A DNA stretch of 64,000 nt from Patescibacteria group bacterium (GTDB lineage: Bacteria; Patescibacteriota; CPR2; UBA1875). The notes beneath the pieces were generated by a model. The model ran no database searches. It was not told the DNA's origin and saw nothing but the letters and a program-made list of their open reading frames with translations. Shown here in pieces: positions 7,769 through 58,795 of the stretch (its first letter is position 1; each line of letters opens with the position of its first letter). The DNA is taken from contig JBGSRK010000009.1 of assembly GCA_041737595.1 (NCBI GenBank), forward strand, positions 43,233-107,232, written 5' to 3'. Position numbers and translations under genes: made by a program.

Positions 7769-7935
7769 CTATATTTATTTAATCACAGTTTTTATTTATT
7801 AAGAAGCTTTTTAAGGTTATTGGATATTTCGACCATTTACAGCTTATGGTTCTGATGATAGAATGTCTCCACGTGAATATAGGATATGGATCCGTACTCA
7901 GGTTCCTAAAAACCGAAAGGCAAGGTGAATATCTA

Positions 7936-8847
7936 ATGAACGAAGATAGGACTGGCTTTCAACCTGATCATAGGGGGAAAGTCAGAGATATCTACGATCT
8001 TGGGGACAGACTTCTCCTAATCGCTACCGATCGAGCTTCGTCGTTTGATGTTGTTCTCCCTGGCACGATTCCTGGGCGCGGGGTGATTCTCACCAAGATC
8101 TCGAAGTTCTGGCTTGAGGGTCCACTCGCAGATATCGTCCCTAACCACCTTCTGAGCACCAATATCCTCGATCTTCCAGCTGACTTCCTGATGCAGTTCA
8201 CTTCTGATGAAGTGGACTATCTCGAAGGTAGAATCATGATCGCGAAAAAGGCCAAGGTTTTCCCTGTCGAATGTATTGTCAGGGGATATTTGGCCGGCTC
8301 AGGTCTCAAGGAGTACAACAATCAAGGGACCGTTTGCGGGATCGTTCTTCCTACTGGTTTGGTCAATTCCGACAAACTGCCGGAACCGATCTTTACTCCG
8401 TCAACCAAGGCCGAGGCAGGCTCCCACGACGAAAACATCACTTTTGGGCAGATGTGTCGCATTGTCGGCGAGTCAGTCGCAGTAGAACTCAAGCGGCTCT
8501 CTCTCGAACTCTACAACAGAGCGGCCGAACACGCTCTGGTACGAGGTGTCATCATTGCCGATACCAAGTTCGAGTTCGGAATCATCAACGACGAGATCAT
8601 GTTGATCGACGAAGTTCTGACCCCTGACTCATCTCGGTTCTGGCCTCTCGATGAGTACGAGCCAGGTCGGGAGCAGAACAGCTTCGACAAGCAGATCCTG
8701 AGGAACTACCTTACGGGTCTCAAGAAGCAAGGTCTGTGGAATGGAGAAGCCCCTGGGCCTGTCATTTCTCAAGAGATCGTCGAACAGACTATCGCACGCT
8801 ATCGCGAAGTCTACGGGAGAATCACCGGTCATACCTATATGGTCTGA
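7936..8847 (+). CDS. purC: SAICAR synthetase, long (actinobacterial-type) form; high-GC island gene
   Basis: GKVRDIYDLGDRLLLIATDRASSFDVVLPGTIPGRGVILTKISKFW ... IIADTKFEFG ... LTPDSSRFWP. GC ~55% versus ~30% in the flanks. The real start ATG is at 7936 (the ORF-track start at 7846 is an upstream extension). Confidence 0.85.
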   Translation: MNEDRTGFQPDHRGKVRDIYDLGDRLLLIATDRASSFDVVLPGTIPGRGVILTKISKFWLEGPLADIVPNHLLSTNILDLPADFLMQFTSDEVDYLEGRIMIAKKAKVFPVECIVRGYLAGSGLKEYNNQGTVCGIVLPTGLVNSDKLPEPIFTPSTKAEAGSHDENITFGQMCRIVGESVAVELKRLSLELYNRAAEHALVRGVIIADTKFEFGIINDEIMLIDEVLTPDSSRFWPLDEYEPGREQNSFDKQILRNYLTGLKKQGLWNGEAPGPVISQEIVEQTIARYREVYGRITGHTYMV

Positions 8848-11561: not shown

Positions 11562-13568
11562 TTATTGTTTCATTAAAGCAAATTGGCTGTTATAAAGAGA
11601 TGCATAAAAGCCTTTTTTTGCTAATAATTCTTTGTGAGTGCCTTGTTCAACAACATCACCATTATTCATAACTAAAATAAGATCTGCGTCGCGTATAGTT
11701 GAAAGACGGTGTGCTATAACAAAACTTGTTTTATTCTTCATTAAATTATCCATAGCTTTTTGAATAAGTACTTCTGTTCTAGTATCAACCGAGCTTGTGG
11801 CTTCATCAAGTATGAGCATGGGTGTTTTAGCAAGCATTGCTCTTGCAATCGTTAAGAGTTGTTTTTCACCTTGAGATATATTATTTGCTTCTTCATTTAA
11901 TTTCATATCATAACCATCAGGCAAAGAACAAACAAAATGATCAACATGAGCTTCTTTAGCTGTTTTAATTATTTCTCTATCAGAAGCATTAGTATTGCCA
12001 TAGGTAATATTATCTCGAATAGTACCATTAAAAAGCCAAGTGTCCTGGAGTACCATCCCAAAAAGTTTTCTAACATCAGAACGTCTCATATCTCTGATAT
12101 CAACACCATCAATTTTTATAGAACCACTATTTATTTCATAGAATCGCATCAAAAGATTTACTAAAGTTGTTTTCCCGGCTCCAGTTGGACCAACTATTGC
12201 AATTCTGTGCCCCGGTTCGATTTTCACAGTAAGATTTTTAATTATTTTTGTATCTGGTTTATAGCCAAATACTACATTATTAAATTCAATTTGACCCTTA
12301 ATATTTGAAATAGTTACCGGTTTTTTTGTTTCTGAAGATTGTTCTTCTTCTGCTAAAAACTCAAAAACCCTTTCAGCTGATGCTGCAGTTGATTGTAAAA
12401 CATTTGCGATATTTGCTGTTTGAGCAATTGGTTGGTTAAACTGTTGAACATATTGAATAAATGCTTGGATATCTCCGATTTGTATTTTGCCATTTATTGC
12501 TTGCCAACCTCCCACAACAGCAACCCCAACATAACCTAAATTTCCAACAAATGTCATCACCGGGAACATTAAACCAGATAAAAACTGTGATTTCCAAGCA
12601 CTATGATATAACTTATCATTTATCTTATTAAACTTATCAACAGATGACTTTTCACCATTAAAAACACGCATTACCATATGACCTGCATACATCTCTTCAA
12701 TATGGCCATTAAGATCGCTAAGTTCTTTTTGTTGTTTTGTAAATTGAACTTGAGATTTTTTCATAATCAACATAATTAGAATAAAACTTAAAGGTAAAAT
12801 TAAAAGAGTAACTAAGGTTAAAAGCCAGCTGATTGAAAGCATCATTACGATAATTCCAATAATCATTACAAAAGAAGTAACAATTTGAGATAAACTTTGA
12901 TTTAAAGTCTGGCTAACAGTATCTACATCATTTGTAACTCGGCTAAGAACTTCCCCATAAGTGATTTTATCGAAATAGCTAAGTGGTAATCGATTAATTT
13001 TTTCAGAAATATCTTTTCGAAACTGATAAGTAACTTTTTGAGTTACTCCCGTCATAATCCAACCCTGTATATAACTAAAAATTGCACTAAAAATATATAA
13101 AGCAAAAAGAAATAGAATAATATTTCTAGTACTCGTAAAATCAAATTTTGGGCGACTAGTTAAATCAAGAGATTTAATTTTATCAAGCTTATCCTGAGGG
13201 ATTTGCTCCAACATTTTAGGAGGCATTTTCTGGATTAAATCAGCTACAGTTGTTCCAGCGGGAAGTTTCGTCCCAGCTGGAATTTTTTCAATAACCTGAT
13301 CATATGCTTTAATATTTATATAATCATCAACTATTTGGTTTGTGACATTCCCTAAAATCTTTGGGCTAACTATTGCAAATATTGTGCTCGCAATCGCAAA
13401 AATAAATACAAACATTATCTTAACCCAGTAAGGCTTAAGATAAACTGCAAGGCTTTTTAGCGTACCCATAAAATCTTTTGCTTTTTCTTGTGCATTACCA
13501 CCTAACATCGGAGGACCAAAATGTCTGCCTGGACGCGCTTGTGAAGTAGTTATTTTTTTTTCTTCCAT
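11562..13568 (-). CDS. Heterodimeric ABC exporter subunit (canonical Walker A/B and H-loop, degenerate signature motif)
   Basis: GPTGAGKTT; ILDEATSSVD; AHRLST. The signature is ISQGEKQ instead of LSGGQ. There is a 6-TM N-terminal domain with a long extracellular loop. Confidence 0.85.
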   Translation of the reverse strand: MEEKKITTSQARPGRHFGPPMLGGNAQEKAKDFMGTLKSLAVYLKPYWVKIMFVFIFAIASTIFAIVSPKILGNVTNQIVDDYINIKAYDQVIEKIPAGTKLPAGTTVADLIQKMPPKMLEQIPQDKLDKIKSLDLTSRPKFDFTSTRNIILFLFALYIFSAIFSYIQGWIMTGVTQKVTYQFRKDISEKINRLPLSYFDKITYGEVLSRVTNDVDTVSQTLNQSLSQIVTSFVMIIGIIVMMLSISWLLTLVTLLILPLSFILIMLIMKKSQVQFTKQQKELSDLNGHIEEMYAGHMVMRVFNGEKSSVDKFNKINDKLYHSAWKSQFLSGLMFPVMTFVGNLGYVGVAVVGGWQAINGKIQIGDIQAFIQYVQQFNQPIAQTANIANVLQSTAASAERVFEFLAEEEQSSETKKPVTISNIKGQIEFNNVVFGYKPDTKIIKNLTVKIEPGHRIAIVGPTGAGKTTLVNLLMRFYEINSGSIKIDGVDIRDMRRSDVRKLFGMVLQDTWLFNGTIRDNITYGNTNASDREIIKTAKEAHVDHFVCSLPDGYDMKLNEEANNISQGEKQLLTIARAMLAKTPMLILDEATSSVDTRTEVLIQKAMDNLMKNKTSFVIAHRLSTIRDADLILVMNNGDVVEQGTHKELLAKKGFYASLYNSQFALMKQ

Positions 13569-27148: not shown

Positions 27149-28450
27149 ATGAATAAGAAAAGAGCAGGACTCCTTAGTGGGTTCTTGGATTTCCTTCCCG
27201 AGGTAGAGCTCATGAGAGAGGCCATGATCGATAAGGTTACTGGCGTCTTCAAGCTCTATGGGTATGGTCCCCAAGATACTCCCTGTCTGGAGTACGCCGA
27301 GACCTTGTTAGACAAGTATGGTGAGAACCAGAAGCTTGTCTACGAGTTCGAGGACAATGGTGGGCGAAAGGTTGCCCTGAGGTATGACCTGACCGTTCCG
27401 CTTTCACGTGTGGTGCCGTCCTATCCAAGTAAGATCAAGCTTCCATTCAAGCGCTACCAAGTAGGCAAGGTGTGGCGAGCAGATCGTCCTGGTAAAGGAC
27501 GTTTTCGCGAATTCATACAAGTAGATGCTGACACAATCGGCACGTCCTCGCCGCAGCTCGATTCTGAGCTTGTCATGGTTACACTTGATGTCATCGCCGC
27601 ACTGAAGCTCACAGCATATGTGAGGATCAACGATAAACGGATCCTCGACGCTCTGAGCAAAACATGTGGTCTGACCGAAGAGCAGAAGATACTTGTACTG
27701 CGCTCAATTGACAAGCTGGATAAGATCGGTCAAGACGCTGTAGTTGTCGAGATTAGCAAGATTGGCCTCGATGCTGAGAAGCTAGATATCGTACAGCAGT
27801 ATCTCGGCATCAACGGGATACCCCGTGAAGTCATCACCAGTCTTCGCGACTTGCTTCAGCCGTGTACTGAGCTTGACGAGGGATGCAAAGTTCTCGAGAC
27901 AGTATTCGAAACCGTCTTTGCGCTTGGCTACGATGCCAAGTCTCTGCGTATCGATCCATGTATCGCCCGAGGCCTCGACTACTACACGGGAGTCATCTTC
28001 GAGACCATGCTGGTTGATAACCCAGAATTCGGGAGTATCTGTTCCGGCGGACGTTACGACTCGATCGTCAAGGATGGCAATGGCAGAGTTTTGCCGGCGG
28101 CCGGTGTTTCAATCGGCCTAGATAGACTCTTTGCGGCCATGCTTGATCGGGATCAGCTTCCCAATGCGGAAGCAGTTGCGAGAGTCCTCATTACAAACAT
28201 GGGAGACTCTACTGCTCGGAAAGCAACAGAGATCGCCTCGTCACTCAGACGCGCCGGTATCTCTGTGCTTTACTACCCAGAAAAGGCCAAGCTCGCAAAA
28301 CAGCTTGGCTACGCATCCGACCTTAAGATCCCTTGGGCCCTTATCGTAGGTCCCGAAGAGATCGAAGCCGGTATGTACACCATCCGTTCTATGGTAGACC
28401 GTCAGCAGACAACCGTACCCCAGGATCAAATCATCAAATCACTCCGCTAG
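27149..28450 (+). CDS. hisS: Histidyl-tRNA synthetase, high-GC island copy
   Basis: GRFREFIQVDADTIG (motif 2/HisA), CSGGRYDSIV...AAGVSIGLDRL (motif 3), and a C-terminal anticodon-binding domain. GC ~56%. AAGGAG SD. Confidence 0.9.
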   Translation: MNKKRAGLLSGFLDFLPEVELMREAMIDKVTGVFKLYGYGPQDTPCLEYAETLLDKYGENQKLVYEFEDNGGRKVALRYDLTVPLSRVVPSYPSKIKLPFKRYQVGKVWRADRPGKGRFREFIQVDADTIGTSSPQLDSELVMVTLDVIAALKLTAYVRINDKRILDALSKTCGLTEEQKILVLRSIDKLDKIGQDAVVVEISKIGLDAEKLDIVQQYLGINGIPREVITSLRDLLQPCTELDEGCKVLETVFETVFALGYDAKSLRIDPCIARGLDYYTGVIFETMLVDNPEFGSICSGGRYDSIVKDGNGRVLPAAGVSIGLDRLFAAMLDRDQLPNAEAVARVLITNMGDSTARKATEIASSLRRAGISVLYYPEKAKLAKQLGYASDLKIPWALIVGPEEIEAGMYTIRSMVDRQQTTVPQDQIIKSLR

Positions 28451-32557: not shown

Positions 32558-33844
32558 TTGCCTAAATATAAAACAATTAAACCTCCCAGAGGAATGCATG
32601 ATCAATTTGAAGAAGATTTATTAAAAATTGAATCAGTTATTTCTATAGCATCTGAGATTGCTAGATCATACGGATTTAAAAGAATAGAAACCCCCACTAT
32701 TGAGTCAATCGAAGTTTTCACAAATACTGGAGATAAGACGATTGATAAATGTTTTACATTTATGGATAAATCAAACCGCGAGATGATATTGAGACCAGAT
32801 ATAAATGCTCCAATCAGCCGCGCTATAGTAAATCATAGCTCATCTCAACCACTACCTCAAAAAATATTTTTCCATGGCAGCGTTTTCAGATATAGAAAAT
32901 CATACCGACGTGAGTTTATTATGTTTGGGGTAGAGACATATGGGATTGCTGAGCCTATTGCAGACGCCGAAATACTTCGAGTAGTGGTTGATTTGATTAA
33001 AAGACTGGGTTTTAAAAAATATACGATTGAATATAGTAATCTTTCAATATTTAGTAGGTTGATTAAATTTTTATCAAAGACAGACAAAGTTAATGTTAAT
33101 GTAGAAGAGCTAATATATAAGCTTAGATTTCATAATAAAAAAGAGCAAAAAAGTATTTTAAATAAAATAGGTTTCCAAAAAAAATCAGAAGAGCTAATCA
33201 TGGATTTTCTATCTTGCCCAGAGGTGAATAAAAACAGCTTTAATTTACTTAAAAAGGTAGCGGCTATGGATAAGTCTATAGAAATTGAAGCTCTGTCTGT
33301 TCTGAATTTCCGAGATGAACTCTTAAAACAACAGTTATCAAATTGTATTTTTAAAATTTCAAATCTACATGGTGAATCATTTTACTCTGGTCTTACATAT
33401 CGTTTATATTTATCAACAGAAATGGGAGATGGGGGAAGATATGACAATTTTACTCTTTTACTAGGGGGTTTATATATTCCAGCTACTGGGTTAGGTTTTG
33501 GTATTAGTAGATTAATTAGACTAGCAGAAGCAGAAAGTATATTAATCCCAATAAAAACAAACATAAAATATTTAGTTCGAATAGTAAGAGGCTCTGAAGA
33601 AACTGTACGACCTTATCTGAGATTACTTAGGAAACAAAATATTATTGTCAACGAAATCCCTGAAGACTATAAAGATGATCGGTTGATGCCATTTGCAATC
33701 AAAGGTGGTTATCACCGTATCTTTGTTATAAAAAGTTTTAACAAAATAAGTGGACTTTATGAAGTTTGGTCAATAAATATAGTTGATGGAACTAATAAAA
33801 AATTTTCTACATATGGTCTAAAAGATATATTTAATTGCTCATAA
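32558..33844 (+). CDS. Second histidyl-tRNA synthetase homologue (low-GC, native-composition copy)
   Basis: Class II motifs: ILRPDINAPISRA (motif 1 region), FRYRKSYRREFIMFGVETYG (motif 2), GDGGRYDNF...ATGLGFGISRLI (motif 3), and a C-terminal anticodon-binding-like domain. It is 12 nt downstream of NPP-2. Confidence 0.75.
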   Translation: MPKYKTIKPPRGMHDQFEEDLLKIESVISIASEIARSYGFKRIETPTIESIEVFTNTGDKTIDKCFTFMDKSNREMILRPDINAPISRAIVNHSSSQPLPQKIFFHGSVFRYRKSYRREFIMFGVETYGIAEPIADAEILRVVVDLIKRLGFKKYTIEYSNLSIFSRLIKFLSKTDKVNVNVEELIYKLRFHNKKEQKSILNKIGFQKKSEELIMDFLSCPEVNKNSFNLLKKVAAMDKSIEIEALSVLNFRDELLKQQLSNCIFKISNLHGESFYSGLTYRLYLSTEMGDGGRYDNFTLLLGGLYIPATGLGFGISRLIRLAEAESILIPIKTNIKYLVRIVRGSEETVRPYLRLLRKQNIIVNEIPEDYKDDRLMPFAIKGGYHRIFVIKSFNKISGLYEVWSINIVDGTNKKFSTYGLKDIFNCS

Positions 33845-36301: not shown

Positions 36302-37156
36302 ATGGCTCACAGAAGAGAAATCAACCGTGGCAAGACTAAGACGATCTACGAAGGCACCAAACTCGGAACTGTCCACGTTGTCAGTCGTGACGACATAACC
36401 GCTGGCGATGGCCAGCGTAAAGATCTGATCCCGGGCAAGGGCCATCTTTCGACCGTCACTACCGCGAACATGTTCATGCTTCTTGCCGCACACGGCATCC
36501 CTACCCACTTCATGAGCATGATCAATGGGAATACGTTCAAAGCGAAGCAAGTCGACATGATCCCGCTCGAATGTGTCGCTCGGAGACTCGCTGTCGGTTC
36601 GTTCCTTGATCGTCAGCCCTCGTTCAAATCCGATCCTCCTCACCGCTTCGAGGCGATTGTTACCGAGCTCTTCTACAAGAGCGACGCAGACAACGACCCG
36701 ATCGTCGTTCCTCAGAGCAACGGTGAGCTCTGGATTCACGATGCACACAAGCCGATTACAGACGCAACCCACAAGGGTATGCTTTCACCGGTGGCGTATC
36801 ATGTCCCACCGGAGAGCTACAACGGCACTCAACTCGAACTCATCGAACAACTGCTCAAGATCACCGAACGAGTCTTTGAGATCCTTGAGCAGGCCTGGCG
36901 ACAAATGGCGAACGCTAATCTCGTTGATCTCAAGATCGAATTTGGGGTGACGAGTGATGGCGAGCTCATAGTTGCCGACGTTATCGATGCAGATTCATGG
37001 CGTCTCTGGCCAGACGGCGACCCGAACCAGGCATGGGACAAGGACTACTACCGTCAGCATGCCGATGCTTCTCGCATTGAAGCTACTCTTCACAAGTACA
37101 ATGAAGTAGCCAAGGCGAGTAACGTTGTTGCCACTTACCGAGACATGACATCCTAA
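36302..37156 (+). CDS. purC: SAICAR synthetase, second copy (E. coli/yeast-type), translationally coupled to purE (TAGATG)
   Basis: GKTKTIYEG...SRDDITAGDGQRKDLIPGKG...LVDLKIEFG...DADSWRLWP. Confidence 0.85.
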   Translation: MAHRREINRGKTKTIYEGTKLGTVHVVSRDDITAGDGQRKDLIPGKGHLSTVTTANMFMLLAAHGIPTHFMSMINGNTFKAKQVDMIPLECVARRLAVGSFLDRQPSFKSDPPHRFEAIVTELFYKSDADNDPIVVPQSNGELWIHDAHKPITDATHKGMLSPVAYHVPPESYNGTQLELIEQLLKITERVFEILEQAWRQMANANLVDLKIEFGVTSDGELIVADVIDADSWRLWPDGDPNQAWDKDYYRQHADASRIEATLHKYNEVAKASNVVATYRDMTS

Positions 37157-38596: not shown

Positions 38597-39583
38597 CTAG
38601 CTCTTCAGTAGATTAATGATTAGTTTAATTAGAATATCTTTTTCTTTTGGGTCACTTGAGGCTGTAAGAATCGCGAGTGCAACAAGCGTATTATCATTTA
38701 TTTTCCGCTCACCATCTTTGCGATACAAATATTTATTCTTTTCAAGAAAATAGACAAACAAAATTGATGCGATACGTTTATTACCATCGAAAAAAGCATG
38801 GTCTTTTGTGACTAAATAAAGCAGGTTGGCTGCCTTACTTTCTATAGAATTGTATAAATCGATTCCATCAAAGGTTTGATATATGCTCCCAATTACTGAT
38901 TTAAATTTATGCTCAATTTCTGAACCAAAAAATGAACCAGCTTCATTTGTTGTAAGTAAATTTTGTTTTAAACTCCCGACAATATTAATAGCCGATTCAT
39001 AGGTCAACTCAAACGACGGGATAATGCCTTTTGTCACTCTTAGTTTCTTTGAGTCATACCTGCCAAGAATTGAGATTGAGCTGGAATAATATTCCAAAAC
39101 AGAAAAAAGTTCTTGTTCCTGACCTAAAAGATCTTCGGTTTTGGCACTTTTGCTCAGAAAATTTACAGTGTCCTTTAATTCTTGTAACTTATTTTGACTT
39201 TCTACAAGTAATTTTTGATTTACAACATGCCCCTGAAGTAAATATTGTTTTAGCACATTGTTAGCCCAGATTCTAAATTGCGTTCCCTGAATTGAATTAA
39301 CCCGATAACCTACAGAAATAGTGACGTCTAGGCTATAATAATCAACCTGATATACCTTACCATCAGCGGCAGTTGTTGCATATTTTGCAACAACTGATTT
39401 TCTTTCTAGTTCTTTTTCATTAAATATATTCTTTAGGTGACGTGAAATAACCGATTTATCGCGGTGAAAAAGTTCTGCTATTTGATCAAGTGAAAGCCAC
39501 AGGGTTTCTTTTTCTAACTTAACCTCAAACTGAGTTTGGCCTGTTTTATCTTTATAAATAACTAACTTTTGTGTTTTTACCAT
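38597..39583 (-). CDS. RhuM-like N-terminal domain fused to a Fic/Doc domain
   Basis: N-terminus KLVIYKDKTGQTQFEVKLEKETLWLSLDQIAELF (RhuM-like). C-terminal HAFFDGNKRIA matches the Fic/Doc motif HxFx(D/N)GNKR. Confidence 0.7.
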   Translation of the reverse strand: MVKTQKLVIYKDKTGQTQFEVKLEKETLWLSLDQIAELFHRDKSVISRHLKNIFNEKELERKSVVAKYATTAADGKVYQVDYYSLDVTISVGYRVNSIQGTQFRIWANNVLKQYLLQGHVVNQKLLVESQNKLQELKDTVNFLSKSAKTEDLLGQEQELFSVLEYYSSSISILGRYDSKKLRVTKGIIPSFELTYESAINIVGSLKQNLLTTNEAGSFFGSEIEHKFKSVIGSIYQTFDGIDLYNSIESKAANLLYLVTKDHAFFDGNKRIASILFVYFLEKNKYLYRKDGERKINDNTLVALAILTASSDPKEKDILIKLIINLLKS

Positions 39584-54409: not shown

Positions 54410-54769
54410 CTACTTAAGGGTTAAATCGTATGGGAAAAGGGCTTCATTCACAATCCTTACAGCCCAATCACCACCGTCGTTGACCCTATCCATACCATAG
54501 TAGAAACGACGAACCAGACGCTCTCCTCCTGAAACTAGATCACCAAGTGTCTTAATCCCCTGCTTTATAAGCCAGGAAATAAAAACATCTGGTAAAACCA
54601 GTTTCTCAACCGAAATTCGAGATGCAATCAATTGATCTTTGAGGTATTCAATTGCCACCTCAACTGTGGTTATCCCCTCTTCGAGAAAATAGAGTGCGTC
54701 GTCAAGTTCCATTATGTCAGTGATTTGAATACCTTTTATGGTATTCAGATTCCTCTGCCGTGTATTCAT
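54410..54769 (-). CDS. Hypothetical 119-aa protein
   Basis: ORF only, with moderately elevated GC. Confidence 0.35.
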   Translation of the reverse strand: MNTRQRNLNTIKGIQITDIMELDDALYFLEEGITTVEVAIEYLKDQLIASRISVEKLVLPDVFISWLIKQGIKTLGDLVSGGERLVRRFYYGMDRVNDGGDWAVRIVNEALFPYDLTLK

Positions 54770-55056: not shown

Positions 55057-57222
55057 ATGAAAGAACTACCAAAACATTTTGATTTTTTAGATCAAACAAA
55101 AATATATAAACTATGGGAAGATGGGGGATATTTTAAACCAGTAAAAAAAGCTGGCGTTAAGCCTTTTTCTATCATTATGCCGCCGCCAAATGCAAATGGT
55201 TTTCTGCATATTGGCCATGCTGTTTTTGTTACACTTGAAGATATAACTATTAGATATCACAGAATGAAAGGGGAACCAACTCTTTGGCTTCCGGGGGCAG
55301 ATCATGCAGGGATTCAAACACAGGTTGTTTATGAAAAAGAGCTTTTAAAACAAGGTAAAACTCGCTTTGATTTAGGTAGAGACGAATTTTATAAACAAAC
55401 ATATGATTTCACAATGGGAAATAAGAAAATTATGGAAAACCAACTTCGAGAACTTGGAGCGAGTTGTGATTGGTCTCGAGAACACTTTACTTTAGAACCA
55501 GATATTTCAAAATCAGTTTATTATACTTTTAAAAAAATGTATGACGATGGCTTAATCTATCGAGGAGAAAGAATAATTAATTGGTGTCCAAGATGTGGGA
55601 CAGCTTTATCTGATATTGAGGTTATACATAAAGAAAAAGAAGGGAAACTAACATATATAAAATATCCGATAGAGAATAGTAATGACTTTATAACTGTTGC
55701 AACAACAAGACCAGAAACAATGCTCGGAGACACCGCCGTTGCTGTAAACCCAGGTGATAAAAGATATAAAAAATATATTGGTCTTAATCTAATTTTGCCT
55801 TTATCAAGCCGTAAAATACCAATAATATCTGATGAGGCAGTAGATATTACTTTTGGAACTGGAGCAGTTAAAATTACACCAGCGCACGACCCATTAGATT
55901 TTGAAATATCAGAAAGACATAATTTAGATGTTATTGAAATTATTAGTAAAGATTTAAAAATGACAAAAGAAGCAGGTAGTAAATACAGTGGCCTAAAATA
56001 TAATGTAGCCAGAGAAAAAGTTATTGAAAATCTTAAAAAATTAAATTTGGTTGAGAAACAAGATAACTTTATTCATTCAGTTGGAACGTGTGAAAGATGT
56101 AAATCAACTATTGAGCCATTAATATCAAAGCAATGGTTTGTAAAGATAAAACCTTTAGCTGAAAAAGCAATTAAGTCAGTAAAATCAGGTGAAATTAAAT
56201 TTACTCCAAAAAGATATGAAAAAGTTTATTTTAATTGGATGGAAAATATTCGTGATTGGTGTATTTCAAGACAAATATGGTGGGGGCATAGAATCCCGGT
56301 ATATTATTGCCAAGACTGTGGCGAGATTATAGTAGAGGTGGAGGCTCCGAATAAATGTAAATGTGGAAGCAAAAACATAATGCAAGATCCTGATACTCTT
56401 GATACTTGGTTTTCGTCAGGGCAGTGGCCTTTTAACACTTTAGGATGGGATAAGGAAGTATCAAAGGGCAAAAAATCAAAAAATGGTGATTTTGAATACT
56501 TTTATCCAACTTCAGTAATGGAAACTGGAATGGATATTTTATTTTTCTGGGTTGCAAGAATGATTATGCTTGGGATATATTGCACCGGTAAACCTCCGTT
56601 TACTGAGGTAGTTCTACACGGTCTTGTTAGAGATAATGATCGTCAAAAGATGTCAAAATCAAAGGGTAATTCGGTTGATCCCCTTGGAATTGTTGAAATA
56701 TATGGGACAGATGCTATAAGAATGGCACTTGTTTTTGGAACAGGTATTGGGAATGATATTGTTATTTCAGAGGATAAAATTAAAGGATTTCGTAATTTCA
56801 GTACAAAAATATGGAATGCTTCTAGATATATACTTATGAATTTAGATGGATATAAAAATGTTCCACGTGGAACATTAGAAAAGATGTTTACTAAAGAGGA
56901 TCTGTGGATAATTAAAGAATTTGAAAAAACTACTGAAAAAATAACAAATTCACTTGAAAAACATAATTTTCATCATGCTGCCGAAGAAATATATGAATTT
57001 TTCTGGCATAAATTTTGTGACAAAACAATTGAAGATACAAAAAAACGCATATATGAGGGTTCAGATAAGGAAAAAATGGTTGCAAAATGGGTATTATTTA
57101 ATGTTTTATCTGGATCATTAAAGTTATTACATCCATTTATGCCTTTTGTAACAGAAGCAATTTGGCAGAATCTAAATAATAAAACACCTTTAATTGTATC
57201 TGAATGGCCTAAAAAGCTATAA
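55057..57222 (+). CDS. valS: Valyl-tRNA synthetase (compact, lacks the C-terminal coiled-coil)
   Basis: PPPNANGFLHIGHA (HIGH), KMSKSKGN, and editing-domain and anticodon-binding regions. Start ATG 55057 has AGGAG upstream. Confidence 0.85.
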   Translation: MKELPKHFDFLDQTKIYKLWEDGGYFKPVKKAGVKPFSIIMPPPNANGFLHIGHAVFVTLEDITIRYHRMKGEPTLWLPGADHAGIQTQVVYEKELLKQGKTRFDLGRDEFYKQTYDFTMGNKKIMENQLRELGASCDWSREHFTLEPDISKSVYYTFKKMYDDGLIYRGERIINWCPRCGTALSDIEVIHKEKEGKLTYIKYPIENSNDFITVATTRPETMLGDTAVAVNPGDKRYKKYIGLNLILPLSSRKIPIISDEAVDITFGTGAVKITPAHDPLDFEISERHNLDVIEIISKDLKMTKEAGSKYSGLKYNVAREKVIENLKKLNLVEKQDNFIHSVGTCERCKSTIEPLISKQWFVKIKPLAEKAIKSVKSGEIKFTPKRYEKVYFNWMENIRDWCISRQIWWGHRIPVYYCQDCGEIIVEVEAPNKCKCGSKNIMQDPDTLDTWFSSGQWPFNTLGWDKEVSKGKKSKNGDFEYFYPTSVMETGMDILFFWVARMIMLGIYCTGKPPFTEVVLHGLVRDNDRQKMSKSKGNSVDPLGIVEIYGTDAIRMALVFGTGIGNDIVISEDKIKGFRNFSTKIWNASRYILMNLDGYKNVPRGTLEKMFTKEDLWIIKEFEKTTEKITNSLEKHNFHHAAEEIYEFFWHKFCDKTIEDTKKRIYEGSDKEKMVAKWVLFNVLSGSLKLLHPFMPFVTEAIWQNLNNKTPLIVSEWPKKL
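56857..56876. repeat. 20-nt perfect palindrome AATGTTCCACGTGGAACATT inside the valS coding sequence
   Basis: It encodes NVPRGT. The 18-nt core ATGTTCCACGTGGAACAT is shared with 57221..57254 and 58171..58198. Confidence 0.5.
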
Positions 57223-57254
57223 TTATATATAGAAATAGATGTTCCACGTGGAAC
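57221..57254. repeat. 34-nt perfect palindrome AGAAATAGATGTTCCACGTGGAACATCTATTTCT just after the valS stop
   Basis: Verified base by base. It may also act as a terminator hairpin. Confidence 0.5.
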
Positions 57255-57289
57255 ATCTATTTCTAATGCTTGAAACATTTATATGAATA

Positions 57290-58174
57290 ATGCAATATAG
57301 ATATATGAGAAAAAATATATATATATATTTTCTAATAGTATTTTTATTTATATTTAACGGTTATTCTATATATTTATCTACAAGATATTTAAATATAAAA
57401 AGAATTAATTATTCTAAAGAATTATTAACCAAATCAGAAAAAAGTGATAATAAGCTCATATACTTAATTGAATCTGATATATTAACCCCAAAGGATGATA
57501 AAAAACTAGAAATAGCTAATATATATCTTAAATCTGGAGATTTTAGTCTTGCTAATATGTATTTAAAGCTAATAAAGGACCCTTCGGGTATAGTTAAATA
57601 TGCTGAATCAGCTTTAGAGGAGGGTAATTATACAGTTTTTAATAATTTATATCAAAAAATTAATAATGAAGCAGTGAAAAATGAATTAATTTTTTTTGAA
57701 AAATTTACTAAAGGAGAGTATGAAGTAATAAATAGTATTAACGATGAACCTGTTACAGGTCTAGGTAAAGTATTATTAGCCATAAATAAAAGAGATTATT
57801 CAGAAATTGATGATAATGGGGCTATAGTCGAGATTATTAATAGTCAAATAAATGATAATATAATATTCACCGAGTTAAATATTTCAAAATCATTAATAGA
57901 AATGTCTCAAATAAATATCGCAAAATATTTACTTAATAGAATCAATAGTGAAAGACCTGAAATATCGGTTACATATTTACTCCAATCTAAAATTTTTGAA
58001 AAAGAAAACAATTATAATAAAGCAATAGATTATATTAAAATCGCAATTTCAAAGGATCCATCTAATATTTCTTACTACGAAGAGGGGATTATACTTTCAG
58101 AAAAAACAAAAAACAATATAGATTTAAGTTTCTTTAAAAATCGTTTAGATAGTTTAAATTCTTCAATAAAATAA
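57290..58174 (+). CDS. Membrane-anchored TPR-like repeat protein, N/K-rich, hypothetical
   Basis: N-terminal TM helix and TPR-like segments (for example YNKAIDYIKIAISKDP). It is flanked by the palindromes. Confidence 0.4.
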   Translation: MQYRYMRKNIYIYFLIVFLFIFNGYSIYLSTRYLNIKRINYSKELLTKSEKSDNKLIYLIESDILTPKDDKKLEIANIYLKSGDFSLANMYLKLIKDPSGIVKYAESALEEGNYTVFNNLYQKINNEAVKNELIFFEKFTKGEYEVINSINDEPVTGLGKVLLAINKRDYSEIDDNGAIVEIINSQINDNIIFTELNISKSLIEMSQINIAKYLLNRINSERPEISVTYLLQSKIFEKENNYNKAIDYIKIAISKDPSNISYYEEGIILSEKTKNNIDLSFFKNRLDSLNSSIK

Positions 58175-58222
58175 TATGTTCCACGTGGAACATATTATAA
58201 AATGGCTTTATAAAGCCATTTT
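58171..58222. repeat. Tandem perfect palindromes: 28-nt ATAATATGTTCCACGTGGAACATATTAT and 24-nt AAAATGGCTTTATAAAGCCATTTT
   Basis: Seen directly. Together they form a probable bidirectional terminator. Confidence 0.5.
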
Positions 58223-58279
58223 ATAATAAATTACTATTGTAAATAATATCAATTTATTATAATATAAGCAGGTTCTTAG

Positions 58280-58355
58280 GCGCCCGTAGCTCAGGGGATA
58301 GAGCGTATGGTTGCGGTCCATAAGGTCGCAGGTTCGATTCCTGCCGGGCGCACCA
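58280..58355 (+). tRNA. tRNA-Arg (GCG)
   Basis: GCGCCCGTAGCTCAGGGGATAGAGCGTATGGTTGCGGTCCATAAGGTCGCAGGTTCGATTCCTGCCGGGCGCACCA; anticodon loop UUGCGGU. Confidence 0.75.
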
Positions 58356-58423
58356 ACGTCAGAATAAACTGACAGCTTTCACAAATTAGCATTTGTTTCA
58401 ATTTCTCGTTATTTTTCCTCAGC

Positions 58424-58545
58424 GATGAAAATCGACAAATTTTCATCGGTTCCAACCAAATCTGTCGATTTTGTCGGAAGAGGAGGAATTGCGATAGGAT
58501 GAAGACGTGATAACCACGTCGGAATCCGTAAGCGAATTCTGACGT
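58424..58545 (+). repeat. Conserved structured inter-tRNA element, copy 2
   Basis: Hairpin GATGAAAAT-CGACAA-ATTTTCATC, then core AAATCTGTCGATTTTGTCGGAAGAGGAGGAATTGCGATAGGATGAAGACG (45/51 identical to copy 1), then hairpin GACGTG-N6-CACGTC. The last hairpin is a compensatory change relative to AGACG/CGTCT in copy 1. Confidence 0.45.
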
Positions 58546-58637
58546 GGTGGGATGCCAGAGTCCGGTTGAATGGGCCGCACTCGAAATGCGGTATAGTCGC
58601 AAGATTATCGGGGGTTCGAATCCCTCTCCCACCGCCA
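58546..58637 (+). tRNA. tRNA-Ser (CGA) with long variable arm
   Basis: GGTGGGATGCCAGAGTCCGGTTGAATGGGCCGCACTCGAAATGCGGTATAGTCGCAAGATTATCGGGGGTTCGAATCCCTCTCCCACCGCCA. Confidence 0.8.
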
Positions 58638-58772
58638 TAATTAGACAATTTTGCCTTTAGGCGAAAGTGTCGAATTAATTACGAAGGAAATGGGATGAGA
58701 ACGGGTTTGCCCCGACGGCAAACCCCGGCCCGAAGCCCAGCGACATTGGAGCTGGGTTGCAAAGCAAGGTCG

Positions 58773-58795
58773 AATCCCTCTCCCACCGCCAGAGA
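58773..58795 (+). repeat. Duplicate of the tRNA-Ser 3' end (CGAATCCCTCTCCCACCGCCA), 135 nt downstream of the intact tRNA
   Basis: 22-nt exact match. The intervening 135 nt are GC-rich with hairpins (GGGTTTG-N9-CAAACCC; CCCAGC-N9-GCTGGG). Confidence 0.45.

What the first reader, a model, noticed from the sequence alone, without database searches (positions are those of the whole stretch)
56857..58222. 18-nt palindrome core ATGTTCCACGTGGAACAT occurs three times within 1.4 kb: once inside valS, and twice as long perfect palindromes flanking the downstream TPR-like gene
The copies at 56857-56876 (coding), 57221-57254 (34-nt perfect palindrome) and 58171-58198 (28-nt) are far too similar for chance. 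The last is followed by a second perfect 24-nt palindrome. The intergenic copies look like bidirectional terminators. A copy of the same stem inside the valS ORF (encoding NVPRGT) suggests a duplicated or mobilised cassette. This could be the 57255-58170 gene inserted by recombination between palindromes, a binding site for an unknown regulator (the CACGTG centre), or a REP-like element family.
Basis: seen in the sequence. Interest (0 to 1): 0.55.

Follow-up and report, generated by a model that had tools for sequence, protein, structure and literature searches.

The report
Three parS centromere sites at valS
The repeated palindrome is the standard bacterial chromosome "centromere" sequence (parS, the loading site of the partition protein ParB), here as a three-site cluster at the end of the valS gene of an uncultivated Patescibacteria-type bacterium: a well-known element in a little-studied lineage.

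Summary
ATGTTCCACGTGGAACAT occurs exactly three times (56858, 57239, 58176) and nowhere else in the 64 kb, even with 3 mismatches.

Its 16-bp core TGTTCCACGTGGAACA is letter for letter the perfect-palindrome parS of Pseudomonas aeruginosa (parS2/parS3) and P. putida. It is a variant of the near-universal chromosomal ParB-binding site tGTTNCACGTGNAACa.

- In a sample of 119 genome stretches from many phyla that carry this 16-mer, it is often clustered, and 26 (22%) also hold a ParB-like ORF within 8 kb.
- Four relatives (ValS 74-80% identical) keep the 16-mer at the same places. Inside valS it is the longest invariant nucleotide run of the gene, and all five synonymous third positions are frozen (P about 3e-6).
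- More distant relatives keep the valS-TPR gene pair but have no site, so the "inserted cassette" idea fails.
- The REP-family idea fails within the 64 kb seen, where there are three copies at one locus.
- Terminator activity is at most a secondary role of the extended hairpins.

Main gap: no parB, parA, smc or dnaA lies in the window, so the cognate ParB and origin proximity are inferred, not shown.

Verdict: ordinary parS sites, a new member of a known kind, of low to moderate interest. One relative shows an odd "parS inserted into parS" structure at both of its sites.

The parts
56859..56874 (.). parS-1: 16-bp core TGTTCCACGTGGAACA inside valS (codons N-V-P-R-G-T), within a 20-nt palindrome at 56857-56876
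   Evidence: It is conserved at the same codons in L001, L002 and L003, and it is the longest invariant nucleotide run in the 4-way valS alignment.
57240..57255 (.). parS-2: 16-bp core, 18 nt after the valS stop codon and about 50 nt before the TPR-like gene start. It is embedded in a 36-nt perfect palindrome at 57230-57265.
   Evidence: (I6). An orthologous site directly after valS is present in L001, L002, L003 and L124.
58177..58192 (.). parS-3: 16-bp core, 3 nt after the TPR-like gene stop codon and about 90 nt before tRNA-Arg. It is embedded in a 28-nt perfect palindrome at 58171-58198.
   Evidence: (I15). An orthologous site follows the TPR gene in L001. It is absent in L124.
58193..58228 (+). 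A separate 36-nt perfect palindrome (core AAAATGGCTTTATAAAGCCATTTT), not parS. It is the terminator-like hairpin for the TPR-like gene.
   Evidence: I9; called terminator-like on the + strand; fold.
55057..57222 (+). valS (valine--tRNA ligase, 721 aa as called). It hosts parS-1 in a variable linker before the anticodon-binding domain.
   Evidence: P0001, 100% identical.
57305..58174 (+). TPR-like gene (289 aa as called) bracketed by parS-2 and parS-3. It is the conserved neighbour of valS whether or not parS is present.
   Evidence: Neighbour of valS in L001, L124, L250 and L251.
58280..58355 (+). tRNA-Arg(GCG), the first gene downstream of the cluster, followed by tRNA-Ser(CGA) at 58546-58637
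   Evidence: The same tRNA pair follows the TPR gene in L124.

Best explanation
The three palindromes are chromosomal parS sites, the centromere-like loading sites of the ParABS/SMC chromosome-segregation system.

Inferred mechanism, from the established biology of the family: a ParB dimer recognises the 16-bp palindrome TGTTCCACGTGGAACA through its helix-turn-helix domains. It binds CTP, closes into a clamp and slides onto flanking DNA. Repeated loading at three sites within 1.4 kb builds one partition complex. That complex positions and segregates the origin-proximal region, through ParA if it is present, and loads SMC.

One site was recruited into a variable surface linker of ValS, where the palindrome reads as NVPRGT. 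Two sites sit in the short spacers just after the valS and TPR-gene stop codons.

Shown here: sequence identity to experimentally defined parS, nucleotide-level purifying selection, orthologous conservation, local clustering, and the strong link of this exact 16-mer with parAB genes in other bacteria.

Inferred: that this organism encodes a ParB that binds these sites, and that the locus is origin-proximal.

The extra palindromic arms of the two intergenic copies (36 and 28 nt) probably give them a secondary hairpin role. That extension is a general property of parS sites in the control set, not a peculiarity of this window.
For: 1. The 16-mer is identical to P. aeruginosa parS2/parS3 (PMC4368675 Table 1), to the P. 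putida consensus, and differs by one base from the M. xanthus consensus (PMC7022226 Table 1). All 9 papers in the library that contain the string have titles or abstracts about ParB, parS or partition systems.

It returned 119 stretches from many phyla, often with 2-5 copies per 8 kb. Of these, 26 of 119 hold a GERRxRA ParB-like ORF and 26 a KGGxGKTT ParA-like ORF. A ParB HMM built from such ORFs hits 47 of all loci fetched to that point. Homologues of an alignment of eight of those ParB-like ORFs are named ParB/Spo0J and carry PF02195. One metagenome stretch has four sites in the spacer after gyrB.

3. Only 3 copies occur in 64 kb, all within 1.4 kb.

4. Relatives L001, L002, L003 and L124 (ValS 74-80% identical) keep the exact 16-mer inside valS and just after it, and L001 also after the TPR gene.

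5. In the 4-way valS codon alignment the 16-mer is the longest invariant run of the 2.2-kb gene. Four-fold sites are identical in all four in 7.9% of columns generally, but in 5 of 5 columns within the site (P about 3e-6).

6. A Candidatus Kerfeldbacteria genome (also Patescibacteria) has four copies in 1.4 kb (L122).

7. In L124 the old site inside valS was interrupted, yet a complete new 16-mer is present in another reading frame. This argues that the DNA site is what is kept, not the peptide.
Against: No parB, parA, smc or dnaA lies in the 64-kb window (Pfam; ParB/ParA HMMs). None lies in 39 kb around the orthologous locus of the relative.

The rest of the source genome could not be reached, so the cognate ParB is unproven.

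Origin proximity is only suggested. GC skew and gene orientation switch at about 23.8 kb, but skew follows gene strand here, and there is no DnaA-box cluster.

Relatives at 69-70% ValS identity have no site near valS, so the location is lineage-specific.

No open-access paper found here describes parS or ParB in Patescibacteria.
Confidence: 0.87

Rival explanations
1. The palindromes act mainly as RNA hairpins: intrinsic, possibly bidirectional, transcription terminators or RNA-processing sites at the ends of valS and the TPR gene.
For: The intergenic copies fold into strong hairpins (-22.7 kcal/mol and about -25 kcal/mol, z about -6). They lie 18 nt and 3 nt after the stop codons. Their arms beyond the core differ between species yet stay complementary: window TAGAAATAGA/TCTATTTCTA, L124 GTGAA/TTCAC, L001 AAT/ATT.
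Against: Copy 2 has no T-run on the valS strand and is not called as a terminator. Copy 3 is called only on the strand with no incoming gene. Copy 1 lies 350 nt inside valS. The 16 core bases are invariant across species, whereas a hairpin needs only pairing. A canonical terminator-like hairpin follows at 58193-58228. Extended arms are common at parS sites in unrelated bacteria: extension of 3 or more in 24 sites against 2.7 expected.
Confidence: 0.04
2. The palindrome is the operator of a different, lineage-specific transcription factor that controls the TPR-like gene and the tRNA genes. One candidate is the small RNA-polymerase-alpha-CTD-like protein encoded upstream of valS. On this view it only resembles parS.
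For: Copy 2 lies about 50 nt upstream of the TPR gene start and copy 3 about 90 nt upstream of tRNA-Arg. A small helix-hairpin-helix-like ORF sits next to valS in the window, in L001 and in L124. No ParB was found in the sequence available.
Against: A 16 of 16 identity with an experimentally defined parS is unlikely by convergence. L002 has the sites but no small ORF upstream of valS. A site 350 nt inside the upstream gene is an odd operator. ParB itself is known to repress promoters next to parS (abstract of PMC5521831), so a promoter effect would not argue against parS.
Confidence: 0.05
3. The copies are members of a REP/MITE-like mobile palindromic repeat family that has spread locally, including into valS.
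For: There are three identical cores with unrelated flanks. In relative L124, insertions carrying the palindrome sit inside older copies.
Against: There are only three copies in 64 kb, all in one 1.4-kb locus. Positions are orthologous in four relatives separated by about 28% nucleotide divergence, which indicates vertical inheritance rather than mobility. There are no target-site duplications and no transposase nearby.
Confidence: 0.02
4. The TPR-like gene is a cassette inserted downstream of valS by recombination between palindromes (integron-like or site-specific).
For: The gene is bracketed by two copies of the palindrome in the window and in L001.
Against: valS followed by the TPR-like gene is the arrangement in L250 and L251, which have no palindrome within 16-22 kb. 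L124 has no site after the gene. No integrase lies nearby. The TPR proteins diverge in step with ValS (28-31% against 74-80%) rather than looking recently transferred.
Confidence: 0.01

Closest known systems
Pseudomonas aeruginosa parS2/parS3 and P. putida parS (ParB-binding chromosomal centromere sites)
   Same: The 16-bp sequence TGTTCCACGTGGAACA is identical (PMC4368675 Table 1; PMC7022226 Table 1). Like the four oriC-proximal P. aeruginosa sites, these form a small cluster.
   Different: The host is a Patescibacteria-type organism with 33% GC. The cluster lies at the valS 3' end, with no parAB operon within 55 kb upstream or 6 kb downstream. ParB binding is not demonstrated.
Bacillus subtilis / general chromosomal parS consensus TGTTNCACGTGAAACA
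   Same: Same family of 16-bp palindrome. Sites may lie inside coding sequence: from my own knowledge, not checked here, the first B. subtilis site described lies inside spo0J (Lin and Grossman 1998). Sites are few per genome and are mostly in the origin-proximal 20% of the chromosome (PMC7022226).
   Different: Positions 5 and 12 are C and G, the Pseudomonas/Myxococcus variant, rather than T and A. Origin proximity could not be verified here.
Noc-binding sites (NBS) and plasmid KorB operators: palindromes bound by ParB paralogues
   Same: These are also short palindromes recognised by ParB-family HTH proteins (from my own knowledge).
   Different: Their sequences differ from this one (from my own knowledge: NBS ATTTCCCGGGAAAT, KorB operator TTTAGCCGCTAAA). 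The window sequence matches parS exactly, not these.
Intrinsic (Rho-independent) terminators
   Same: The intergenic copies form stable stem-loops directly after stop codons.
   Different: There is no U-tract on the relevant strand for copy 2. The stem sequence is invariant across species. One copy lies in mid-gene.
REP / Rickettsia-palindromic-element-type repeats that can insert in frame into genes
   Same: A palindrome is tolerated in frame in a surface linker of an essential enzyme. In L124 a palindromic insert adds 15 codons to ValS.
   Different: Copy number is tiny, positions are orthologous, and the sequence is that of a known protein-binding site.

Membership tests
Chromosomal parS (ParABS centromere) | 16-bp palindrome matching tGTTNCACGTGNAACa | tested here: met
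   All three copies are TGTTCCACGTGGAACA, identical to P. aeruginosa parS2/parS3.
Chromosomal parS (ParABS centromere) | Few copies, clustered, not dispersed | tested here: met
   There are 3 copies within 1.4 kb and none in the other 62.6 kb at up to 3 mismatches. L124 has 2 copies in 39 kb. A genome-wide count was not possible.
Chromosomal parS (ParABS centromere) | Cognate ParB (ParB N-terminal CTPase domain plus HTH) encoded in the same genome | tested here: inconclusive
   None is present in the 64-kb window or in 39 kb of a relative.
Chromosomal parS (ParABS centromere) | Location in the origin-proximal domain | tested here: inconclusive
   A GC-skew minimum and a divergent gene-orientation switch lie at about 23.8 kb, 33 kb from the sites. 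There is no dnaA and no DnaA-box cluster, and skew is confounded with gene strand.
Chromosomal parS (ParABS centromere) | Selection on the DNA sequence itself, conserved at orthologous positions | tested here: met
   The site is the longest invariant run in valS. Synonymous sites are frozen in 5 of 5 columns against a 7.9% background. The same positions are occupied in L001-L003 and L124.
Chromosomal parS (ParABS centromere) | The same sequence is associated with parAB in other bacteria | tested here: met
   26 of 119 genome stretches and 14 of 120 metagenome stretches with the motif carry a ParB-like ORF. 47 loci do so by HMM.
Chromosomal parS (ParABS centromere) | Specific ParB binding and spreading (EMSA, ChIP-seq) | not testable with these tools
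   This needs an experiment.
Intrinsic terminator | G+C-containing stem-loop followed by a T-run on the transcribed strand | tested here: not met
   Copy 2 is not called. Copy 3 is called on the - strand only. Copy 1 is called on the - strand inside valS. The separate hairpin at 58193-58228 meets the criterion.
REP/MITE-like palindromic repeat family | Many dispersed, mostly intergenic copies | tested here: not met
   There are 3 copies in 64 kb at one locus, and their positions are orthologous in relatives.
Integron-type or recombination-delimited gene cassette | The gene is present only together with its flanking recombination sites, with a recombinase nearby | tested here: not met
   The valS-TPR pair exists without any palindrome in L250 and L251. 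No integrase lies in the neighbourhood.

The most novel reading that the evidence does not exclude
In this Patescibacteria lineage the chromosome centromere sits at the 3' end of valS, away from any parAB operon, with one site written into the ValS reading frame.

The sites may also turn over by a palindrome-centred mechanism. In the relative L124, both old sites were split exactly at their centres by 45-nt and 54-nt inserts, and each insert carries a fresh parS with identical flanks. This could reflect cruciform or hairpin cleavage at ParB-bound palindromes, followed by templated repair, which would be an undescribed route of centromere renewal.

A still less likely extension is that the lineage lacks canonical ParB and a different protein reads the sites.
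Probability: 0.15. Interest if true: 0.5.

Novelty: new member of a known kind. Interest (0 to 1): 0.25.

Why it matters
It turns an apparently odd "mobile palindrome" into an annotatable feature: the partition-complex nucleation region of an uncultivated Patescibacteria genome.

This gives a landmark for the origin-proximal domain in a group where oriC is hard to call. It is also a ready test substrate for the lineage's ParB.

It shows that parS can be held under selection inside an essential coding sequence. It warns annotators and assemblers that these perfect palindromes coincide with contig ends. Otherwise the element is textbook biology.

Tried and rejected
- **Restriction or methylation signal.** CACGTG is not depleted or enriched: 7 seen against about 5 expected. 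Rejected.
- **Rfam.** Only tRNAs at gathering thresholds, and nothing over the palindromes at E up to 1.
- **Duplicated valS fragment.** Similarity of the flanks outside the core is at AT-rich chance level (D1). Rejected.
- **Search for ParB, ParA, SMC and DnaA.** Nothing was found.
- **Extending the window's own contig.** Exact-protein look-ups returned only short Logan contigs or nothing.
- **Walking 39 kb of the relative's 175-kb contig.** No ParB.
- **A ParB profile search to find a Patescibacteria ParB or one on the same contig.** It returned only Clostridia-type ParBs.
- **Literature searches for ParB or parS in Patescibacteria/CPR.** Nothing relevant was found. The one apparent lead concerned the host bacterium, not TM7x.
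- **DnaA-box scan.** No enrichment: 23 seen against 20.8 expected.
- **Search for a source of the L124 insert spacers.** It gave only chance 9-mer matches.
Full report
**Observation.** The 18-mer ATGTTCCACGTGGAACAT occurs exactly three times in the window, at 56858-56875, 57239-57256 and 58176-58193. There is no other match with up to three mismatches, against a chance expectation of 0.01.

- Copy 1 lies in frame in valS (AAT GTT CCA CGT GGA ACA = NVPRGT) and is part of a 20-nt palindrome.
- Copy 2 is the centre of a 36-nt perfect palindrome at 57230-57265.
- Copy 3 is the centre of a 28-nt perfect palindrome at 58171-58198.
- An unrelated 36-nt perfect palindrome follows at 58193-58228.
- CACGTG alone is not unusual in the window, and Rfam has nothing for these sequences.

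**Context.** The window is 33% GC. Its ValS is most similar to proteins labelled Patescibacteria. The local gene order is:

- valS (55057-57222)
- a TPR-like gene (57305-58174)
- tRNA-Arg
- tRNA-Ser
- a histidine-phosphatase-like gene
- DJ-1
- fpg
- holA

The rest of the window is housekeeping: aminoacyl-tRNA synthetases, purine synthesis, FtsH, MurJ and ABC transporters. It is therefore chromosomal, not a plasmid or phage.

**Identification.** The invariant 16-bp core TGTTCCACGTGGAACA is the canonical chromosomal parS in its Pseudomonas/Myxococcus variant.

- It is listed letter for letter as parS2 and parS3, "the perfect palindrome", of P. aeruginosa (PMC4368675 Table 1).
- It is the P. putida consensus, and the M. 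xanthus consensus differs by one base. The general consensus is TGTTNCACGTGAAACA (PMC7022226).
- A full-text search for the 16-mer found nine papers, and the eight listed all concern ParB, parS or partition systems by title or abstract.

**Independent control.** It returned 119 stretches from Proteobacteria, Acidobacteriota, Bacteroidota, Verrucomicrobiota, Planctomycetota, Firmicutes, Actinobacteria and others, often with 2-5 copies per 8 kb.

- 26 of the 119 stretches contain an ORF with the ParB arginine-patch motif GERRxRA, and 26 contain a ParA-type KGGxGKTT ORF.
- An HMM built from those ORFs finds ParB in 47 of the loci fetched to that point.
- Database homologues of an alignment of eight of those ParB-like ORFs are named ParB/RepB/Spo0J and carry PF02195.
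- By my own rough estimate, an 8-kb block should contain a parB gene by chance well under 1% of the time.
- One metagenome stretch has four sites in the 1.8-kb spacer after gyrB.
- One genome hit is a Candidatus Kerfeldbacteria genome, also Patescibacteria, with four copies in 1.4 kb, some directly after stop codons and beside tRNA genes (L122).

**Conservation in relatives.** ValS proteins 76-80% identical to the window's (P0002-P0004) share the peptide VPRGT at this position. Proteins at or below 73% identity do not.

- Their contigs carry the exact 16-mer at the same codons, again directly after the valS stop, and in L001 again after the TPR-like gene.
- In the four-way codon alignment, 55% of nucleotide columns are invariant, and the longest invariant run in the whole gene is exactly the 16-mer.
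- Four-fold degenerate third positions are identical in all four sequences in 14 of 178 conserved-residue columns (7.9%), but in all five codons of the site. That gives P of about 3e-6.
- Selection therefore acts on the DNA, not on the peptide.
- The site sits in a linker that varies in length and sequence among ValS proteins, which explains why it is tolerated.

**What the relatives exclude.** L250 (ValS 70%) and L251 (69%) keep valS followed by the TPR-like gene, but have no match to either parS variant in 16-22 kb.

- The gene pair therefore predates the palindromes, and the "cassette inserted between palindromes" idea fails.
- Three copies at one locus, at orthologous positions across about 28% nucleotide divergence, is not how a REP or MITE family behaves.

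**Terminator question.** The intergenic copies fold into very stable hairpins.

- Copy 2 lacks a T-run on the valS strand and is not called as a terminator.
- Copy 3 is called only on the strand with no incoming gene.
- The hairpin at 58193-58228 is the one called on the + strand.
- The arms outside the core differ between species yet stay complementary, so some pressure or mechanism favours longer palindromes.
- This is not special to the window. Among 159 sites in the unbiased genome set, perfect extension by 3 or more bp occurs 24 times against 2.7 expected, and by 5 or more bp 9 times against 0.2.
- A secondary hairpin role is possible, but it is not the main identity of the element.

**Gaps.** No parB, parA, smc or dnaA is present in the window. 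None is present in 39 kb around the orthologous locus of a relative.

- I could not reach the other 56 kb of the source contig or the rest of the genome. A ParB profile search was swamped by Clostridia.
- GC skew and gene orientation both switch at about 23.8 kb in the sense expected of an origin, 33 kb from the sites. Skew tracks gene strand here, and there is no DnaA-box cluster, so origin proximity is only suggested.
- The relative's downstream region holds rpsF-ssb-rpsR and ychF. From my own knowledge these are origin-proximal in Bacillus, which is weak support at best.
- No open-access paper on parS or ParB in Patescibacteria was found.

**Mechanism.** The best-supported reading is a three-site parS cluster. 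It would nucleate CTP-dependent ParB clamps that spread over the region, assist ori-domain segregation and load SMC. This mechanism is taken from the review PMC7022226. The sequence-level evidence is shown here. ParB binding in this organism is inferred. I put this at about 0.87.

**A curiosity in a relative.** In L124 (ValS 74%; the same sequence appears in a JGI and a Logan assembly) both sites are nested.

- Inside valS the old site reads AAAAATGTTCCA[45 nt]CGTGGAACAATTG. The insert adds 15 codons (SRTGMFHVEHSMRDK) and carries a complete parS in another reading frame.
- After valS the old site reads AAAATTGTTCCAC[54 nt]GTGGAACAATTTT, again with a complete inner parS.
- The two inner sites share identical flanks, GAA...TTC.
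- This architecture occurs at no other locus among the 339 site instances scanned, and both regions fold as long hairpins.
- It suggests breakage at the palindrome centre with templated repair, but I could not find a source for the spacers.

**Verdict.** The element is an ordinary, well-known one (parS) in an under-studied lineage. It is a new member of a known kind, of low to moderate interest.

Noticed in passing
L124 11826-11900 and about 12287-12365 (same in L125 and L129): Both parS sites of this relative are 'parS inside parS'. The old palindrome is split at its centre by a 45-nt or 54-nt insert that carries a complete new parS with identical GAA...TTC flanks. The coding insert adds 15 residues to ValS. 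No other locus among the 339 site instances scanned shows this architecture.
   Followed up: partly
genome loci L004-L122 (159 sites): Perfect palindromic extension beyond the 16-bp parS core is much commoner than chance across phyla. Extension of 3 or more bp: 24 observed against 2.7 expected. Extension of 5 or more bp: 9 against 0.2. The longest palindromes are 48 nt (L071) and 38 nt (L057).
   Followed up: partly
L123 end (11647-11666), L002 end, L001 end: Three independent short-read assemblies end at or within about 60 nt of these palindromes. L123 stops 4 nt after parS-2. This suggests the perfect palindromes break assembly graphs.
   Followed up: no
window 58616-58637 and 58770-58791; 58356-58545; 58640-58770: The last 22 nt of tRNA-Ser(CGA), including CCA, are repeated exactly 154 nt downstream, after a GC-rich structured stretch. 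This could be a remnant att-like duplication or an undetected tRNA-like RNA. The 190-nt tRNA-Arg/tRNA-Ser spacer has imperfect inverted ends. Neither region has an Rfam or ARAGORN call.
   Followed up: partly
window 27149-28450 and 32558-33844; 7846-8847 and 36302-37156; 27.0-28.5 kb and 34-38 kb: There are two hisS genes and two SAICAR-synthase genes. One copy of each lies in or beside segments of 45-53% GC in a 33% GC window, which suggests horizontally acquired islands.
   Followed up: no
window about 23.7-24.9 kb: The cumulative GC-skew minimum coincides with a switch from - strand to + strand genes and with the most AT-rich DNA of the window (23-25% GC). This is origin-like, but there is no dnaA and no DnaA-box cluster.
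   Followed up: partly
window 56903-56911 (- strand): The only perfect DnaA box (TTATCCACA) in the window lies 28 nt from parS-1, inside the conserved DLWII codons of valS. The count of boxes is at chance level, so this is probably coincidence.
   Followed up: partly
window 54410-54769 (- strand); L001 122-490; L124 9426-9698: A small conserved ORF (90-122 aa) with weak RNA-polymerase-alpha-CTD / helix-hairpin-helix similarity sits divergently upstream of valS in several parS-bearing relatives, but not in L002. Its function is unknown.
   Followed up: no
window 38597-39583 (- strand): A RhuM/Fic-domain protein lies next to tRNA-Asp and comEC. It may be a toxin-like or mobile remnant.
   Followed up: no
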